A DNA stretch of 45,775 nt. Origin: a virus (taxonomy: Duplodnaviria; Heunggongvirae; Uroviricota; Caudoviricetes). Of this stretch, positions 20,600-27,564 are shown one piece after another. Position 1 is the stretch's first letter, and each line of letters begins with the position of its first letter. The notes under the pieces are model-generated. The model saw only the letters and a program-made list of their open reading frames with translations. It made no database searches and had not been told where the DNA came from. Made by a program: the position numbers and the translations under genes. The stretch lies in the IMG/VR virus record IMGVR_UViG_2718218398_000003. One strand, given 5' to 3'.

Positions 20600-21091
20600 A
20601 TGGATCATGAGTTGAAAAACCTGGTGCTGAATATTAATCAACTGGCGGCTTTATCTGGTCTGCACCGCCAGACTGTCGTGGCAAGACTGAAAAACATTCG
20701 TCCCGCTGGTGGACATGACAAACTCAAGCTATACCGGTTGACCGATATTCTGACTGAATTTATGGGGTTACCACCGCCGGTTGCTGAGGGCGAAATGGAT
20801 CCACATGAACGCAAAGCCTGGTATCAGTCTGAACGTGAGCGTCTTAAGTTCGAACAGGAAACGGCACAACTCATTCCGGCCAGTGATGTCAGACGGGAGT
20901 TTGCCATCTGGGCAAAAGCGGTCGTGCAGGTGCTGGAGACATTACCGGATATTCTGGAACGTGACTGCGGCCTGCAGCCTGCCGCTGTGAGCCGTGTTCA
21001 GTCCATTATTGATGATCTGCGCGATCAGATAGCCCTGCGGGTGACCGAAGCAGGTGCGGATGATGAGGAGGAATTACAGCAGGAGGAGTAA
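20600..21091 (+). CDS. terminase small subunit
   Basis: 163 aa immediately upstream of and overlapping (TAATG) the large terminase; acidic C-terminus; position equivalent to lambda Nu1. Confidence 0.7.
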   Translation: MDHELKNLVLNINQLAALSGLHRQTVVARLKNIRPAGGHDKLKLYRLTDILTEFMGLPPPVAEGEMDPHERKAWYQSERERLKFEQETAQLIPASDVRREFAIWAKAVVQVLETLPDILERDCGLQPAAVSRVQSIIDDLRDQIALRVTEAGADDEEELQQEE

Positions 21092-23193: not shown

Positions 23194-23402
23194 ACCAGAA
23201 TGATATCGAAGCCATGATTCAGCGTTATACGGAAGCTGAAATGGCGGTGCTGGACGGAAAATCCGTCACCTTTAATGGTCAGCAGATGACCATGGAAAAC
23301 TTATCTGAGATCCGGCAGGGACGGCAGGAGTGGGAGCGCCGCCTTGCGGCTCTGATTACACGACGACGGGGGCATCCCGGGTACCGGCTGGCGAGGTTCT
23401 GA
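23184..23402 (+). CDS. W: head-tail joining protein (lambda gpW-like)
   Basis: 72 aa between terminase and portal, overlapping both; size and position as lambda W. Confidence 0.65.
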   Translation: MVMNQNDIEAMIQRYTEAEMAVLDGKSVTFNGQQMTMENLSEIRQGRQEWERRLAALITRRRGHPGYRLARF

Positions 23403-24910
23403 TGGCAATTCTTGATGATGTGATTGGCGTTTTTTCACCAGGATGGAAAGCGGCAAGGCTGCGTTCCCGTGCGGTGATCCAGGCTTATGAGGCCGTAAAA
23501 ACGACGCGGACACACAAAGCCCGGCGGGAAAACCGAACTGCCGACCAGTTAAGCCAGTACGGGGCCGTGTCGTTACGTGAGCAGGCCCGTTACCTTGATA
23601 ACAACCACGATCTGGTTATTGGTGTATTTGACAAGCTGGAAGAACGGGTGGTGGGGAAAAACGGGATTATTGTCGAGCCACATCCGGTATTACGCAATGG
23701 GGCCATTGCCCGTGATCTGGCAGCGGAGATTCGCACCCGATGGAGTGAATGGTCTGTCAGCCCGGAAGTCACCGGGCAGTTTACCCGTCCGATGCTGGAA
23801 CGTCTGATGCTGCGTACCTGGCTGCGCGATGGTGAGGTGTTTGCCCAGATGGTTTCCGGGCGCATAAACAGCCTGACGCCTTCTGCCGGTGTTCATTTCT
23901 GGCTGGAGGCGCTCGAGCCGGACTTTATTCCCATGACCAGTGATGAGAGCAACAGGCTGAATCAGGGCGTGTTTGTTGATGACTGGGGGCGTCCCGAAAA
24001 ATATCTGGTGTATAAAAGCCGTCCCGTATCCGGACGGCAGATGGAAACCAAAGAAGTGGATGCAGAGCGAATGCTGCATCTTAAATTTGTTCGCCGTCTG
24101 CACCAGATGCGCGGGACGTCTTTGTTGTCCGGTGTGCTGATCCGCCTCAGTGCCCTGAAAGAGTATGAAGATTCTGAGCTGACTGCAGCAAGGATCGCCG
24201 CTGCTCTGGGGATGTACATCCGGAAAGGCGACGGGCAGAGCTATGAACCGGATGGTAATGGCAGCAAGGATAAGGAACGCGAGCTTACCATTCAGCCAGG
24301 CATTATTTACGACGATCTGAAACCCGGCGAAGAAATTGGAATGGTGAAGTCGGATCGCCCCAATCCTAATCTTGAAACTTTTCGTAATGGTCAGTTGCGT
24401 GCCGTGGCGGCGGGCAGTCGTCTGAGTTTTTCCAGTACGGCACGCAACTATAACGGCACTTACAGCGCCCAGCGTCAGGAACTGGTTGAGTCCACTGATG
24501 GCTACCTGATCCTGCAGGACTGGTTTATTGGTGCCGTCACCCGCCCGATGTATCGTGCATGGCTGAAACAGGCTGTGGCATCCGGTGTTATCAGGCTACC
24601 CCGTGATCTTGACCGTTCTTCACTGTATACCGCGGTGTATTCCGGACCAGTGATGCCGTGGATTGACCCTGTTAAGGAGGCTGAGGCCTGGAAAATCCAG
24701 ATTCGTGGTGGAGCGGCGACAGAATCAGACTGGGTACGTGCTGGTGGTCGTAATCCGGATGATGTCAAACGTCGGCGCAAGGCCGAAATTGATGAAAACC
24801 GCAAGCTGGATCTGGTATTTGATACCGATCCGGCCAGTGATAAAGGAGGCAGCAGTGCCGCAACGAAACGACAGGAGCCGCAGCACACCGACGACCAGTC
24901 CGAAGAATAA
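23402..24910 (+). CDS. portal protein (lambda gpB family)
   Basis: Start at MAILDD... overlapping the W stop (track ORF starts 72 nt earlier in the same frame); about 500 aa; position and size of the portal. Confidence 0.88.
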   Translation: MAILDDVIGVFSPGWKAARLRSRAVIQAYEAVKTTRTHKARRENRTADQLSQYGAVSLREQARYLDNNHDLVIGVFDKLEERVVGKNGIIVEPHPVLRNGAIARDLAAEIRTRWSEWSVSPEVTGQFTRPMLERLMLRTWLRDGEVFAQMVSGRINSLTPSAGVHFWLEALEPDFIPMTSDESNRLNQGVFVDDWGRPEKYLVYKSRPVSGRQMETKEVDAERMLHLKFVRRLHQMRGTSLLSGVLIRLSALKEYEDSELTAARIAAALGMYIRKGDGQSYEPDGNGSKDKERELTIQPGIIYDDLKPGEEIGMVKSDRPNPNLETFRNGQLRAVAAGSRLSFSSTARNYNGTYSAQRQELVESTDGYLILQDWFIGAVTRPMYRAWLKQAVASGVIRLPRDLDRSSLYTAVYSGPVMPWIDPVKEAEAWKIQIRGGAATESDWVRAGGRNPDDVKRRRKAEIDENRKLDLVFDTDPASDKGGSSAATKRQEPQHTDDQSEE

Positions 24911-24923
24911 TTCCTGGTTCAGG

Positions 24924-26882
24924 ATGCAGGCTGGTCACCAGAGTGACGCGGATATTTATATTTATGACGAGATTGGTTTCTGGGGGGTTACAGCGAAGCA
25001 GTTTATCAGTGATCTGAATGCACTGGGCGATATCACCCACATTAATCTCCATATCAATTCACCGGGTGGCGATGTCTTTGAAGGCATCGCCATTTTTAAT
25101 GCGCTGAAAACACATGGTGCGTCCATTACCGTTTATGTCGACGGTGTGGCGGCGTCAATGGCGTCGGTCATTGCGATGGTGGGAAACCCGGTCATTATGC
25201 CGGAAAACACCTTCATGATGATTCATAAACCATTTGGCTTTACGGGCGGTGATGCGGAGGACATGCGCACCTATGCCGACCTGCTCGATAAGGTTGAGGC
25301 GGTTCTGTTACCCGCTTATGCACAGAAAACCGGGAAAACCACCGATGAAATTGCTGCCATGCTGGCGGATGAGACCTGGATGTCCGGAGCCGAATGTCTG
25401 GCTCATGGATTTGCTGACCAGGTGACGCCAGCCGTTAAGGCAATGGCATGTATTCAGTCAAAACGTACAGAGGAATTTAAAAAGATGCCGGAATCCATTC
25501 GAAACATGATTACTCCGCCACGCAACAGTGCTCCACGCGTACCGGATGATGAACCAGCAGCACCCCGGACGCCAGTGCAGGCAGCAGCACCAGTGGTGGA
25601 TGAAAACAGTATCCGTGCGCAGGTACTGGCAGAGCAAAAAGCGCGTGTAAACGGTATTAATGATCTGTTTGCCATGTTTGGCGGGCGTTATCAGGCGCTG
25701 CAGGCTCAGTGCCTTGCCGATCCTGAGTGTTCGCTGGAGCAGGCCCGCGAGAAGCTGTTGAACGAGATGGGGCGCGAGTCCACGCCATCCAATAAAAATA
25801 CCCCGGCTCATATTTATGCCGGTAACGGTAATTTTGTGGGGGACGGGATCCGCCAGGCGCTGATGGCGCGTGCCGGATTTGAAAAAACCGAACGTGATAA
25901 TGTCTACAACGGGATGACTCTGCGTGAATATGCCCGTATGTCACTGACTGAACGGGGTATTGGGGTTTACAGTTATAACCCGATGCAGATGGTCGGTGCG
26001 GCGTTCACACACAGTACGTCTGACTTCGGTAATATTCTGCTGGATGTTGCGAACAAAGCCATTCTGCAGGGCTGGGAAGATGCCCCTGAAACCTATGAAC
26101 AGTGGACGCGGAAAGGTCAGTTGTCTGATTTTAAAATTGCCCATCGTGTGGGTATGGGTGGCTTCAGTGCTCTGCGTCAGGTGCGTGAAGGGGCGGAATA
26201 TAAATACGTCACCACCGGAGATAAACAGGCCACTATTGCACTGGCGACCTATGGCGAGCTGTTCAGTATCACCCGTCAGGCCATTATCAATGATGATCTG
26301 AATATGCTGACCGATGTCCCGATGAAACTGGGCCGTGCGGCGAAATCCACTATTGCCGATCTGGTTTATGCCATTCTGACGTCTAACCCGAAAATCTCCA
26401 CAGATAATGTAAGTCTGTTCGATAAAGCGAAACATGCAAACGTACTGGAGAGCGCTGCAATGGACGTGGCATCGCTGGATAAAGCCCGCCAGTTGATGCG
26501 CGTTCAGAAAGAGGGGGAGCGTCATCTGAATATTCGTCCTGCGTTCGTACTGGTACCGACGGCGATGGAGTCTGTTGCTAACCAGGTCATTCGCTCCTCA
26601 AGTGTCAAGGGGGCTGACATTAACGCCGGTATTATTAACCCGGTGAAAGATTTTGCGACCGTTATTGCAGAGCCTCGTCTTGATGATAACAGCCAGACCA
26701 CCTTCTACCTGGCTGCGTCAAAAGGCTCCGATACGATTGAAGTGGCTTATCTCAACGGTGTGGATACGCCATATATTGATCAGATGGAGGGCTTCAGTGT
26801 GGATGGCGTGACAACGAAAGTGCGTATTGACGCCGGTGTCGCGCCAGTTGATCACCGCGGTCTGGTGAAATGTACGGCGTAA
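24924..26882 (+). CDS. prohead protease (ClpP/S14-like) fused to major capsid protein
   Basis: N-terminal ClpP-like domain (...GVAASMASVI...MIHKP... with Ser and His of the catalytic triad) and a large C-terminal capsid-like domain; start at MQAGHQ just after the portal stop is uncertain (weak RBS). Confidence 0.75.
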   Translation: MQAGHQSDADIYIYDEIGFWGVTAKQFISDLNALGDITHINLHINSPGGDVFEGIAIFNALKTHGASITVYVDGVAASMASVIAMVGNPVIMPENTFMMIHKPFGFTGGDAEDMRTYADLLDKVEAVLLPAYAQKTGKTTDEIAAMLADETWMSGAECLAHGFADQVTPAVKAMACIQSKRTEEFKKMPESIRNMITPPRNSAPRVPDDEPAAPRTPVQAAAPVVDENSIRAQVLAEQKARVNGINDLFAMFGGRYQALQAQCLADPECSLEQAREKLLNEMGRESTPSNKNTPAHIYAGNGNFVGDGIRQALMARAGFEKTERDNVYNGMTLREYARMSLTERGIGVYSYNPMQMVGAAFTHSTSDFGNILLDVANKAILQGWEDAPETYEQWTRKGQLSDFKIAHRVGMGGFSALRQVREGAEYKYVTTGDKQATIALATYGELFSITRQAIINDDLNMLTDVPMKLGRAAKSTIADLVYAILTSNPKISTDNVSLFDKAKHANVLESAAMDVASLDKARQLMRVQKEGERHLNIRPAFVLVPTAMESVANQVIRSSSVKGADINAGIINPVKDFATVIAEPRLDDNSQTTFYLAASKGSDTIEVAYLNGVDTPYIDQMEGFSVDGVTTKVRIDAGVAPVDHRGLVKCTA

Positions 26883-26905
26883 ACATCGCAGACAACAACT
26901 CTGAT

Positions 26906-26929
26906 GGCCCGTAAGTAAGGGCTTTTTTT
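26906..26929 (+). terminator. intrinsic terminator after the capsid gene
   Basis: GGCCC-gtaagtaa-GGGC followed by TTTTTTT. Confidence 0.7.
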
Positions 26930-26972
26930 GTACCTGAAATCAGCCCCTGAACGGGGCTGTGTGGAGACAGTT

Positions 26973-27296
26973 ATGGCAAAGAATTTTGTAGAAGAAGGAA
27001 AAACGGTGGCGATTGTTGCCAGTGCAGCCATCAGCAGCGGAGATCTGGTGCAGGTGGGTGATGTTTTTGCGGTGGCGCTGACCGATATTCCACAGGGTGA
27101 AACAGGCGACGGTATGACCGAAGGTGTGTTTATGCTGCCTAAGCTGAAAACGGATGACATGAAAACGGGTAAGAAGGTTTATCTGAAGTCCGGAAAAGTT
27201 CAGCTGACTAACAGCGGCTCTGATCCGCTGGTCGGGGTTGTCTGGGCAGATGCCGGAACCAGTGCAGAAGAAGTGCCGGTAAAACTCAATGTCTGA
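26973..27296 (+). CDS. small head-module protein (possibly decoration/cement-type)
   Basis: Start MAKNFVEEGK with GGAG 6 nt upstream (track start 26928 lies in the terminator); 107 aa; position between capsid and head-tail connector genes. Confidence 0.5.
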   Translation: MAKNFVEEGKTVAIVASAAISSGDLVQVGDVFAVALTDIPQGETGDGMTEGVFMLPKLKTDDMKTGKKVYLKSGKVQLTNSGSDPLVGVVWADAGTSAEEVPVKLNV

Positions 27297-27564
27297 TCCC
27301 TTTTCCCGGCTGGCAGCGCGTATGGATGCTATCACGGTCAGAAAGATGGGAAAGCCAGCCTCGATTAATGATGTCGATATGACCGTGATCCCGGGAGAAA
27401 CACTGGCAGAGCTGAATGCTCTGTCCGGACCTGCGGTCTCTCTGGTGGTGTTTTCTTCGGGATACCGCCCACGGCGCGGGGATCGCGTTGTTTATGACGG
27501 ACAACAATGGACGGTCACACGGCATGAACGCTTTAACGGTAAGCCAATGATCTTTATTGAGTAA
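27289..27564 (+). CDS. head-tail connector / head completion protein (FII-like position)
   Basis: 91 aa, overlapping neighbours, immediately upstream of Z. Confidence 0.55.
   Translation: MSDPFSRLAARMDAITVRKMGKPASINDVDMTVIPGETLAELNALSGPAVSLVVFSSGYRPRRGDRVVYDGQQWTVTRHERFNGKPMIFIE

What the first reader, a model, noticed from the sequence alone, without database searches (positions are those of the whole stretch)
24924..27296. Head module uses a ClpP-like protease fused to the capsid protein, unlike lambda, while the tail is lambda-like
A single ORF of about 650 aa combines an S14/ClpP-type protease domain with a capsid-like C-terminal domain; lambda has separate C, Nu3, D and E. The start codon is poorly supported (AGG adjacent to ATG), so the true N-terminus or translation mechanism is unclear. 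A small downstream ORF (26973-27296) may be a decoration-type protein.
Basis: partly seen in the sequence, partly recalled or inferred. Interest (0 to 1): 0.35.

Follow-up and report, generated by a model that had tools for sequence, protein, structure and literature searches.

The report
Gifsy-2-type fused protease-scaffold-capsid gene

Summary
One uninterrupted ORF ending at 26882 carries an N-terminal ClpP-like protease domain, a helical middle segment and a C-terminal Mu-gpT-type capsid domain. The 107-aa ORF at 26973-27296 is a capsid cement (decoration) protein. None of this is new. The protein scores 985 bits against NCBIfam NF045540 (cut-off 475) and is 69.9% identical to the Gifsy-2 "tripartite capsid gene" (Effantin 2010). 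It is 99% identical to phages mEp460, cdtI and Tritos, and related DNA occurs in 2,136 of 5,426 complete E. coli genomes.

Two refinements came out of the comparison:
- **Start codon.** ATG 24924 is very probably not the start. A conserved SW(F/Y) motif lies upstream of it, and many relatives have no Met at that position. GTG 24855 sits behind AAGGAGG, overlaps the portal gene by 56 nt and gives 675 aa. Lambda C has the same layout.
- **Possible internal start.** Met211 (ATG 25485) is invariant, and a conserved AGGA lies 10 nt upstream. The third base of codon 206 is the most conserved of 612 codon columns. This suggests a nested, Nu3-like start giving a 465-aa scaffold-capsid protein. It is inferred from sequence only, and the spacing is longer than optimal.

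The parts
23402..24910 (+). Portal gene (lambda gpB family). It is context only; its last 56 nt overlap the start of the fusion gene.
   Evidence: Pfam Phage_portal_2 E 5.7e-82 and TIGR01539 at 456 bits. PGAP annotation of the 99.7%-identical locus L001.
24843..24849 (+). Shine-Dalgarno AAGGAGG, 5 nt upstream of GTG 24855.
   Evidence: Anti-SD duplex dG -11.6 kcal/mol, against -2.6 for ATG 24924. A GTG with an SD at dG -11.6 sits at offset -35 to -37 in about half of the Enterobacterales loci and is weaker (-7 to -9) in others.
24855..26882 (+). Best-supported full-length CDS: protease-scaffold-capsid fusion protein, 675 aa, 73.6 kDa, GTG start.
   Evidence: PGAP uses this start (WP_001442205.1). 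The 675-aa form dominates public gene calls; one cluster has 8,230 members. A conserved SW(F/Y) motif lies upstream of ATG 24924, and Met is absent at that position in Gifsy-2, Fels-1, Pseudomonas and Pasteurellaceae relatives. NF045540 scores 985 bits.
24924..24926 (+). It is probably just internal Met24.
   Evidence: No usable SD (dG -2.6). The position is I, L or F in about 35 of 80 relatives. Starting here would cut off the conserved SWF motif encoded at 24912-24920.
24915..25442 (+). ClpP-like (S14-type) prohead protease domain, residues about 21-196. Ser101 is at 25155-25157, His124 at 25224-25226 and Glu173 at 25371-25373.
   Evidence: Pfam CLP_protease E 4.5e-36 and NF045542 at 215.8 bits. 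PDB ClpP hits down to E 3.8e-16, with GxAASM and MIHxP aligned. Ser101, His124 and Glu173 are invariant in the 8-phage alignment, and Glu173 is invariant in all 67 genes.
25470..25475 (+). Codons 206-207 (GAGGAA), which contain a conserved SD-like AGGA 10 nt upstream of ATG 25485.
   Evidence: The third base of codon 206 is G in 66 of 67 non-redundant genes, the lowest third-position entropy (0.11) of 612 columns. Glu is GAG in 54 of 54 cases; the variants CAG, AAG and GGA-GAC keep AGGA or GGAG.
25485..26882 (+). Candidate nested in-frame CDS from invariant Met211: scaffold plus capsid without the protease, 465 aa, 50.7 kDa. This is inferred and not demonstrated.
   Evidence: Met211-Pro212 are invariant in 67 of 67 genes. 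Met211 aligns with lambda C Met309, which follows AGGAGG. An analogous single ATG with an SD sits at the junction in MinM1 and S1.
25512..25598 (+). Variable Pro/Ala-rich linker, residues about 220-248.
   Evidence: This is the least conserved, indel-rich stretch of the 8-phage alignment.
25599..25769 (+). Conserved helical middle (scaffold-like) segment, residues about 249-305.
   Evidence: It is the only moderately confident part of the AF2 model (pLDDT 59-83, three helices). It aligns with the Nu3 part of lambda C. The scaffold role is inferred, as in PMC8508860.
25806..26879 (+). Major capsid protein region, residues about 318-675, 39.0 kDa if cleaved near 318. It is the Mu gpT-type HK97-fold lineage. 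The cleavage site is not known.
   Evidence: Pfam Phage_capsid_4 E 1.3e-54 and Mu-like_gpT E 3.7e-8. A profile of 14 diverse capsid domains hits the solved 'Mu GpT domain' capsid proteins 8rkc/8rkx at E 7e-11 and 9jod at 1.8e-8.
26906..26930 (+). Terminator-like hairpin (GGCCC...GGGC followed by T7) between the fusion gene and the cement gene.
   Evidence: Pattern scan. A terminator is annotated at the same place in Ayreon and mEp213. The fold of the intergenic region is not better than shuffles (z -1.15).
26973..27296 (+). Capsid cement/decoration protein gene (107 aa, 11.1 kDa), with GGAGA at 26963-26967.
   Evidence: Pfam PF09956 Phage_cement_2 E 9e-21 and PHROG 122 E 1.8e-47. It is 61% identical to the Gifsy-2 gene in the same position. 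The Foldseek top hits are capsid auxiliary proteins.

Best explanation
This is the head-shell module of an mEp460/cdtI/Gifsy-2-type lambdoid phage.

**Shown by sequence comparison.** One gene encodes, from N to C terminus: a ClpP-like serine protease domain, a Pro/Ala-rich linker, a helical scaffold-like segment related to lambda Nu3, and a Mu-gpT-type HK97-fold coat protein. The next gene encodes a small cement protein of the PF09956 family.

**Inferred from the Gifsy-2 work and from general HK97/lambda head assembly.** The precursor assembles into a T=7 procapsid with the protease and scaffold parts inside. The protease then removes everything N-terminal of the coat domain. The shell expands during DNA packaging, and cement trimers bind at threefold positions to stabilise it, doing what gpD does in lambda.

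**Translation, inferred from comparative data.**
- The full-length protein (675 aa, 73.6 kDa) starts at GTG 24855 behind AAGGAGG, inside the last 56 nt of the portal gene. Lambda C starts in the same way.
- I estimate about a 55% chance that a second, nested initiation at ATG 25485 (Met211) gives a protease-less scaffold-coat protein (465 aa, 50.7 kDa). That would let the phage make fewer protease domains than coat subunits, as lambda does with Nu3 nested in C.

The confidence value below refers to the identity of the module, not to the nested start.
For: **Identity.**
- The protein is 69.9% identical over its full length to the Gifsy-2 gene and 72% to Fels-1. Another 31 Pseudomonas phage records match at about 57%.
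- The synteny portal, fusion gene, cement gene is seen in E. coli, Salmonella, Providencia, Pseudomonas, a cyanophage and Stenotrophomonas.
[quoted passage not shown] PMC8508860 describes the same single protease-scaffold-MCP gene in MD8.
- Ser101 and His124 are invariant.

**Start at 24855.** See, and the lambda C parallel of GTG behind GAGGAGG (dG -12.0) overlapping gene B by 20 nt.

**Nested start.**
- Met211-Pro212 are invariant in 67 of 67 genes.
- The third base of codon 206 is the most constrained of 612 columns, with GAG in 54 of 54 cases.
- Elsewhere in these genes, Glu before a GA-starting codon is 74% GAA, and the Lys206 genes use AAG although they prefer AAA 3-6 fold.
- With only 11 representatives below 70% identity, the probability that all use a G-ending codon is about 10^-4.5, assuming the lineages are independent. 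With 29 representatives below 80% identity, codon 206 is the only one of 11 Glu/Lys/Gln-only columns with a single third base.
- Met211 aligns with lambda C Met309, which follows AGGAGG (dG -10.8).
- MinM1 (S78-type protease domain) and Stenotrophomonas S1 (no protease family matched) each have one in-frame ATG with an SD at the same junction.
Against: - Nothing speaks against the identity of the module.
- For the start: no protein-level data were available. Some annotators use ATG 24924, which lies 13 nt after the portal stop, so termination-reinitiation there cannot be excluded.
- For the nested start: the spacing AGGA-N10-ATG is longer than optimal, and the duplex energy is modest (-6.0; five other in-frame start codons in this gene score better).
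- The hhalign match to lambda C is weak (probability 30%, E 5e-4).
- RefSeq annotates lambda nu3 from residue 239 and not 309.
- I could not read Effantin 2010 to see which precursor sizes were observed.
- The full-length structure prediction failed (pLDDT 35), so domain boundaries rest on alignments.
Confidence: 0.93

Rival explanations
1. Only the full-length 675-aa polyprotein is made. Every coat subunit carries its own protease and scaffold. The invariant Met211-Pro212 and the conserved AGGA reflect protein-level constraints or another RNA-level constraint, such as a cleavage or recognition motif, a translational pause or local RNA structure, and not an initiation site.
For: - The SD-to-ATG spacing of 10 nt is long and the duplex energy is only -6.0.
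- SKRxEEFxxMP is a conserved peptide motif in its own right.
- The papers I could read on this architecture mention no second product (PMC8508860).
Against: - A purely protein-level constraint does not explain why a synonymous third position is the most conserved of 612 columns.
- It also does not explain why Glu is GAG in 54 of 54 cases against the gene's own preference for GAA.
- When the residue changes to Gln, Lys or Gly-Asp, the AGGA/GGAG core is still kept.
- The same ATG-plus-SD signature is found in the S78-type sister lineage and at lambda C Met309.
Confidence: 0.4
2. The gene starts at ATG 24924, as the first reader and the Ayreon and mEp460 annotations have it. Ribosomes that terminate at the portal stop (24908-24910) re-initiate 13 nt downstream, giving 652 aa.
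For: - The ATG lies 13 nt after the portal stop.
- It is the first ATG before the conserved protease core.
- It is used in GenBank records MF807953 and JQ182728.
Against: - It has no SD (dG -2.6).
- The equivalent codon is Ile, Leu or Phe in Gifsy-2, Fels-1, the P. aeruginosa phages and most Pasteurellaceae loci.
- The SW(F/Y) motif encoded just upstream, after the portal stop, is conserved from E. coli to Pseudomonas.
- Two loci (L062, L081) begin at MKSW(F/Y).
- A strong, conserved SD plus GTG lies 69 nt upstream.
Confidence: 0.08
3. The long ORF is an artefact: two real genes, protease and capsid, joined by a sequencing frameshift or a lost stop codon in this copy.
For: None was found.
Against: - The same continuous ORF is present in 74 phage records, including plaque-forming phages (mEp460, cdtI, Tritos, Ayreon, F10, MD8).
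- It is also present in about 2,000 E. coli genomes and in 79 loci from other species.
- A curated NCBIfam model exists for the fusion.
Confidence: 0.01

Closest known systems
Salmonella phage Gifsy-2 'tripartite capsid gene' with its downstream decoration gene (Effantin et al. 2010, Virology 402:355; cited in PMC12315714 and PMC8538268)
   Same: The fusion protein is 69.9% identical over its full length and the cement protein is 61% identical. The gene order is the same: portal, fusion gene, cement gene, FII-like, Z. According to the citing papers, Gifsy-2 has fused protease and coat genes and a trimeric decoration protein at threefold axes.
   Different: The N-terminal extension and start site differ. 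Gifsy-2 is annotated from an ATG 99 nt upstream of the anchor position, and the window uses GTG 69 nt upstream. The Pro/Ala linker differs. I could not read the primary paper, so the precursor sizes and cleavage site reported there are unknown to me.
Phages mEp460, cdtI, Tritos, Ayreon and phi458, and the corresponding E. coli prophages (NCBIfam NF045540)
   Same: DNA identity is 98-99% across 24600-27400 and protein identity is 99%. This window is a member of that group.
   Different: Essentially nothing differs. Only the annotated start codons vary between records.
Pseudomonas phage MD8 gp5 and F10 gp5 (PMC8508860)
   Same: They have the same three-part single gene at 57% identity and the same synteny with a head decoration gene.
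   Different: The host and GC content differ. The residue pair at 206-207 is Gln-Glu (CAGGAG) rather than Glu-Glu.
Phage lambda C / Nu3 (S49 protease with the scaffold nested in the same frame)
   Same: - Both genes follow the portal gene and overlap its 3' end.
- Both have a GTG start behind a strong SD.
- In both, a protease domain is followed in frame by a scaffold segment.
- Both have an internal ATG with an SD at the junction; lambda C Met309 aligns with Met211.
   Different: - In lambda the reading frame stops after the scaffold, and D and E are separate genes. Here it runs on into the coat protein.
- The protease is S49 in lambda and ClpP/S14-like here.
- The coat proteins are unrelated at sequence level.
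- The decoration gene comes after the coat gene here and before it in lambda.
HK97 gp5 (delta-domain scaffold fused to the coat protein) with the separate protease gp4
   Same: The scaffold function is fused to the N terminus of an HK97-fold coat protein and removed by a prohead protease. This rests on established knowledge and on PMC8508860.
   Different: - The HK97 protease is a separate S78-family gene.
- HK97 has no decoration protein and uses chainmail crosslinks.
- There is no detectable sequence relationship to the delta domain.
NF045541-type fusions (Synechococcus phage MinM1, Stenotrophomonas phage S1)
   Same: The scaffold and coat parts are homologous from about residue 197 onward (399.8 bits, below that model's cut-off of 525). 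The synteny is the same, with a DUF2190 cement gene downstream. Each has an internal ATG with an SD at the junction.
   Different: The N-terminal domain is not ClpP-like. In MinM1 it is Peptidase_S78 (HK97-type); in S1 no protease family was matched.

Membership tests
NCBIfam NF045540, ClpP-like prohead protease/major capsid protein fusion protein (Gifsy-2-type tripartite capsid gene) | Whole-protein score above the curated cut-off, with end-to-end coverage of the model. | tested here: met
   985.1 bits against a cut-off of 475. Residues 9-651 match model positions 2-651 of 652.
NCBIfam NF045540, ClpP-like prohead protease/major capsid protein fusion protein (Gifsy-2-type tripartite capsid gene) | Protease and coat domains in one uninterrupted reading frame. 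| tested here: met
   The ORF runs from 24663/24855 to 26882 without a stop. CLP_protease and Phage_capsid_4 are on the same protein.
NCBIfam NF045540, ClpP-like prohead protease/major capsid protein fusion protein (Gifsy-2-type tripartite capsid gene) | Full-length homology to the experimentally studied Gifsy-2 gene, and the same gene neighbourhood. | tested here: met
   69.9% identity over residues 1-651. The order portal, fusion gene, cement gene, FII-like, Z is the same in both.
NCBIfam NF045540, ClpP-like prohead protease/major capsid protein fusion protein (Gifsy-2-type tripartite capsid gene) | The precursor is cleaved to a mature coat protein that forms a T=7 decorated shell. | not testable with these tools
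   This needs virion or procapsid biochemistry or cryo-EM. It is known for Gifsy-2 only through papers that cite Effantin 2010.
Peptidase family S14 (ClpP-type) / ClpP-related head maturation protease NF045542 | Domain match, with the catalytic Ser and His in the conserved GxxxSM and MIHxP contexts. | tested here: met
   NF045542 scores 215.8 bits against a cut-off of 120. Ser101 and His124 align with the ClpP catalytic residues and are invariant.
Peptidase family S14 (ClpP-type) / ClpP-related head maturation protease NF045542 | Third triad residue (Asp171 of E. coli ClpP). | tested here: inconclusive
   The aligned position is Glu173, with Asp172 next to it. Both are invariant in the 8-phage alignment, and Glu173 is invariant in all 67 genes. 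Whether Glu serves in the triad cannot be decided from sequence.
HK97-fold major capsid proteins, Mu gpT-type lineage (Pfam PF25209 / PF10124) | Sequence membership above the Pfam gathering thresholds, and relatives with solved capsid structures. | tested here: met
   PF25209 scores 186.7 bits (cut-off 27) and PF10124 scores 33.5 bits (cut-off 20.1). The profile hits PDB 8rkc/8rkx 'Mu GpT domain' at E 7e-11 and the 9jod capsid protein at 1.8e-8.
HK97-fold major capsid proteins, Mu gpT-type lineage (Pfam PF25209 / PF10124) | Three-dimensional HK97 fold (A domain, P domain, E loop, N arm). | tested here: inconclusive
   The AF2 model of the full protein had a mean pLDDT of 35 and was unusable, because the alignment was too shallow.
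Capsid cement protein family PF09956 (Phage_cement_2, formerly DUF2190): ORF 26973-27296 | Pfam match above threshold, position directly after the coat gene, and a fold like known capsid auxiliary proteins. | tested here: met
   PF09956 scores 74.6 bits (cut-off 24). The synteny is seen in all relatives examined. The Foldseek top hits are phiCD508 capsid chain C (E 8.8e-4, TM 0.58), Pam3, HFTV1 and T1 capsid chains, although the model is only moderately confident (pLDDT 63.5).
Lambda gpD / SHP decoration protein family | Sequence or fold match to gpD. | tested here: not met
   Pfam returned only PF09956 and PF22758. There is no PDB sequence relative. No gpD or SHP entry appears among the top 50 Foldseek hits. 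The protein probably works like gpD but is not a member of that family.
Lambda C/Nu3-type nested protease-scaffold gene | An in-frame internal ATG with a ribosome-binding site at the protease/scaffold junction, conserved at the nucleotide level. | tested here: met
   See for the invariant ATG and the constrained AGGA. It aligns with lambda C Met309. The spacing of 10 nt is longer than optimal.
Lambda C/Nu3-type nested protease-scaffold gene | A separate shorter polypeptide is actually made from the internal start. | not testable with these tools
   This needs Western blots or proteomics, toeprinting or initiation-site ribosome profiling.

The most novel reading that the evidence does not exclude
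The fused capsid gene may really be two nested genes, as lambda C/Nu3 is. A conserved internal ribosome-binding site (AGGA at 25471-25474) and the invariant ATG 25485 would direct synthesis of a protease-less scaffold-coat protein of 465 aa alongside the 675-aa protease-scaffold-coat protein. The ratio of the two starts would then set how many protease domains are built into each procapsid.

The same signature is present in the S78-type sister fusions (MinM1, S1) and at lambda C Met309. If real, it would be a general design rule for head genes of this kind. It would also be missing from the annotation of this gene wherever it occurs, including roughly two in five complete E. coli genomes.

I could not check whether Effantin 2010 already reported such a product.
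Probability: 0.5. Interest if true: 0.45.

Novelty: already known. Interest (0 to 1): 0.17.

Why it matters
As stated, the finding matters little. The architecture was described for Gifsy-2 in 2010 and for MD8 in 2021, it has its own NCBIfam model, and this window is 99% identical to sequenced phages.

Two practical points follow:
- Public records disagree on the start codon (three different starts). The comparative evidence here favours the PGAP choice, GTG 24855.
- If the nested internal start is real, it would explain how a phage that fuses its protease to its coat protein avoids making about 415 protease domains per head. It would also link the HK97 solution (scaffold fused to coat) and the lambda solution (scaffold nested in protease) in one gene.

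Both points can be tested cheaply in mEp460, cdtI or Gifsy-2.

Tried and rejected
- **Full-length structure prediction.** AF2 with an 18-sequence alignment gave a mean pLDDT of 35 and was unusable. The alignment was too shallow (76-99% identity), because only proteins returned by the search for homologous proteins could be submitted and the 120 listed were all close relatives. The fold test for the coat domain was replaced by a profile search of PDB sequences.
- **Primary literature.** Effantin 2010 could not be read by DOI or PubMed id because it is not held. A lambda review could not be fetched by PMC id. Searches for the size or start of gpNu3 gave nothing decisive.
- **Cement protein against PDB sequences.** Neither the single sequence nor the profile found a relative. 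Only the fold comparison was informative.
- **Tritos-type start at ATG 24759.** Rejected. It has a weak SD (dG -5.6), lies 150 nt inside the portal gene, and the extension is not conserved.
- **Programmed frameshift from portal into the fusion frame.** Considered because about a dozen singleton 1159-aa 'portal + ClpP + capsid' proteins exist in the databases. Rejected. Their length is exactly what any 1-nt deletion in the 257-nt stretch where both frames are open would give, and they are very rare compared with clusters of thousands of normal genes.
- **Regulatory RNA structure between the fusion and cement genes.** The fold is no better than shuffled sequence (z -1.15).
- **Lambda gpE homology of the coat domain.** None was found (E 0.34).
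Full report
**1. What is in the sequence**

The + strand frame is open from 24654 to the stop at 26880-26882. Pfam places a CLP_protease domain at residues 23-168 (E 4.5e-36) and a Phage_capsid_4 domain at 354-649 (E 1.3e-54), with a weaker Mu-like_gpT match. NCBIfam has a curated model for exactly this architecture, NF045540 'ClpP-like prohead protease/major capsid protein fusion protein'. It scores 985 bits against a cut-off of 475 and covers the protein end to end. PHROG 133 also matches over the full length.

The 107-aa ORF at 26973-27296 has GGAGA 5 nt before its ATG. It matches Pfam PF09956 (Phage_cement_2, formerly DUF2190; E 9e-21) and PHROG 122 'head decoration' (E 1.8e-47).

**2. Where the window comes from and how common this is**

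The region 24600-27400 is 98-99% identical to phages Tritos, mEp460, cdtI, Ayreon, phi458 and others. Related DNA is present in 2,136 of 5,426 complete E. coli genomes. At the protein level, 74 phage records carry the full-length fusion:
- E. coli and Stx phages, at 74-78% identity
- Fels-1, at 72%
- Gifsy-2, at 69.9%
- a Providencia phage, at 64%
- 31 Pseudomonas phage records, at about 57%

A scan of one genome per species found 79 further loci in Enterobacterales, Pasteurellaceae, Shewanella and Pseudomonas. The idea that the long ORF is a frameshift artefact is excluded.

**3. It is a described system**

[quoted passage not shown] 2010)'. PMC8538268 lists Gifsy-2 among phages with a trimeric cement protein at each threefold axis. 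PMC8814770 lists Gifsy-2 as T=7.

PMC8508860 describes the same single protease-scaffold-MCP gene in Pseudomonas phage MD8. It reports an HHpred match to the lambda protease region at 99.9% and names Mu gpT as the closest coat protein. I could not obtain Effantin 2010 itself.

**4. Domains**

Protease:
- ClpP structures match down to E 3.8e-16, with the GxAASM and MIHxP motifs aligned.
- Ser101 and His124 (675-aa numbering) are invariant in the 8-phage alignment.
- The position of ClpP's Asp is Glu173, which is invariant in the 8-phage alignment and in all 67 non-redundant genes.

Middle region:
- A conserved SKRxEEFxxMP segment is followed by a variable Pro/Ala-rich linker and then conserved helices at about residues 249-305.
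- These helices were the only moderately confident part of an otherwise failed AF2 model.
- They align with the Nu3 part of lambda C in a weak profile comparison (E 5e-4, probability 30%).

Coat domain:
- A profile of 14 diverse coat domains hits the solved 'Mu GpT domain' capsid proteins 8rkc/8rkx (E 7e-11) and the 9jod capsid protein (1.8e-8).
- There is no similarity to lambda gpE.

Cement protein:
- It is 61% identical to the Gifsy-2 gene in the same position.
- It has no sequence relative in the PDB.
- Its AF2 model (pLDDT 63.5) finds capsid auxiliary proteins as top structural matches: phiCD508 capsid chain C (E 8.8e-4, TM 0.58), Pam3, HFTV1, the phi29 gp8.5 base and T1. Lambda gpD is not among them.

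**5. The mosaic claim**

The tail genes are lambda-type: Z, U, V and G, T and a tape-measure protein with the lambda C-terminal domain. However, the large terminase subunit (gpA domains), the portal (lambda family) and the FII-like connector are lambda-type as well.

The non-lambda part is therefore confined to the coat protein and the decoration protein. In addition, the decoration gene follows the coat gene here instead of preceding it, and no FI homolog was seen between the cement gene and the FII-like gene.

**6. The start codon**

Annotators use three starts: GTG 24855 (PGAP, 675 aa), ATG 24759 (Tritos) and ATG 24924 (Ayreon). I compared the junction in eight diverse phages and then in about 80 loci.
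- The codon equivalent to 24924 is Ile, Leu or Phe in Gifsy-2, Fels-1, the P. aeruginosa phages, most Pasteurellaceae and others. It cannot be the family's start.
- A motif S-W-(F/Y) is encoded just upstream of it, at 24912-24920. That is downstream of the portal stop at 24908-24910. The motif is conserved from E. coli to Pseudomonas, and two loci (L062, L081) begin MKSW(F/Y). This stretch is therefore translated.
- In the window, the only in-frame start upstream with a ribosome-binding site is GTG 24855, behind AAGGAGG plus 5 nt (anti-SD duplex dG -11.6, against -2.6 for 24924). The site is conserved in mEp213, Stx2 phages, a Klebsiella phage and about half of the Enterobacterales loci.
- The 675-aa form is also the dominant gene call in public data.
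- Lambda C is built in the same way, with a GTG behind GAGGAGG (dG -12.0) overlapping the end of portal gene B by 20 nt.

I put the probability that 24855 is the main start at about 0.8. Re-initiation at 24924 after the portal stop cannot be excluded without protein data.

N-terminal sequencing of virions would not settle this. The N-terminal part is presumably removed during maturation, so it is the uncleaved precursor that must be examined.

**7. A probable nested start**

Met211-Pro212 (ATG 25485) are invariant in all 67 non-redundant genes (below 97% identity). Ten nucleotides upstream lies GAGGAA (codons 206-207).

In a codon alignment, the third base of codon 206 is G in 66 of 67 genes. 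That is the lowest third-position entropy (0.11) of 612 columns. Glu206 is GAG in 54 of 54 cases, whereas other invariant Glu columns are about 3:1 GAA. The non-Glu variants are CAG-GAG (7), AAG-GAx (5) and GGA-GAC (1), and all keep AGGA or GGAG at a fixed distance from the ATG.

Controls:
- Elsewhere in these genes, Glu before a GA-starting codon is 74% GAA.
- The Lys206 genes use AAG although they prefer AAA 3-6 fold.
- With only 11 representatives below 70% identity, the chance that all use a G-ending codon is about 10^-4.5, assuming the lineages are independent. With 29 representatives below 80% identity, codon 206 is the only one of 11 Glu/Lys/Gln-only columns with a single third base.

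Parallels in other lineages:
- Met211 aligns with lambda C Met309, which follows AGGAGG plus 4 nt (dG -10.8). That is the strongest internal site in C and would give 131 aa. RefSeq annotates nu3 from residue 239 instead. My recollection is that gpNu3 is about 13 kDa, but I could not verify it.
- In the sister lineage, MinM1 (with an S78-type protease domain) and Stenotrophomonas S1 each have exactly one in-frame ATG between residues 150 and 330. It lies at the protease/scaffold junction and is preceded by GGAGGG (dG -10.0) or AGGAG (dG -6.6).

The natural reading is a nested gene. It would give a 465-aa, 50.7-kDa scaffold-coat protein alongside the 73.6-kDa full-length protein.

Caveats:
- The 10-nt spacing is longer than optimal.
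- The duplex energy is modest.
- No protein evidence was available.
- I cannot tell whether Effantin 2010 already addressed this.

**8. Verdict**

The finding is correct but ordinary: a member of a known, named and very common family. The added value of this check is a better-supported 5' end (24855) and a testable hypothesis of a nested internal start at 25485.

Noticed in passing
window 24654-24910; proteins P0006-P0017: About a dozen singleton database proteins of 1158-1159 aa join portal, ClpP and capsid domains. Their length is exactly what a 1-nt deletion anywhere in the 257-nt stretch where the portal and fusion frames are both open would produce. They are probably indel errors or pseudogenes and not programmed frameshifting.
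   Followed up: partly
window 26906-26930 and 26941-26959: A terminator-like hairpin with a T7 run sits directly after the coat gene, followed by a second GC-rich hairpin (CAGCCCC-TGAA-CGGGGCTG) just before the cement gene's SD. Other annotators marked a terminator at the same place in Ayreon and mEp213. The overall fold is not better than shuffled sequence (z -1.15). A role in differential expression or mRNA stabilisation within the late operon remains open.
   Followed up: partly
window 27289-27564: PGAP names this 91-aa protein 'DNA breaking-rejoining protein', and Pfam family PF13856 is labelled 'ATP-binding sugar transporter from pro-phage'. By position, by a weak Phage_attach match and by PHROG 153, it is the lambda FII-like head-tail connector. 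The database names look misleading.
   Followed up: partly
L091 (lambda) 2743-2745, which is lambda coordinate 5342: Lambda C has its strongest internal ribosome-binding site (AGGAGG plus 4 nt, dG -10.8) before Met309, which would give a 131-aa product. RefSeq NC_001416 annotates nu3 from Met239 (coordinate 5132, dG -6.9, 201 aa). The RefSeq nu3 start may be too far upstream.
   Followed up: partly
proteins P0018, P0019, P0068, P0076, P0086: Database proteins join the ClpP-capsid fusion to terminase, tape-measure, tail L or DUF1983 tail-tip segments; one such cluster is seen on 37 contigs. They probably come from deletions in defective prophages that fuse distant late genes.
   Followed up: no
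window 25461-25463 (codon 203): Lys203 is AAA in 56 of 57 Lys-bearing genes. This is the second most constrained third position in the gene and lies three codons upstream of the conserved AGGA. It may belong to the same translation-initiation region.
   Followed up: no
window 20600-21091: The gene upstream of the large terminase subunit is a DUF1441 protein with an HTH. It sits in the position of a small terminase subunit but is not lambda Nu1-like by Pfam.
   Followed up: no
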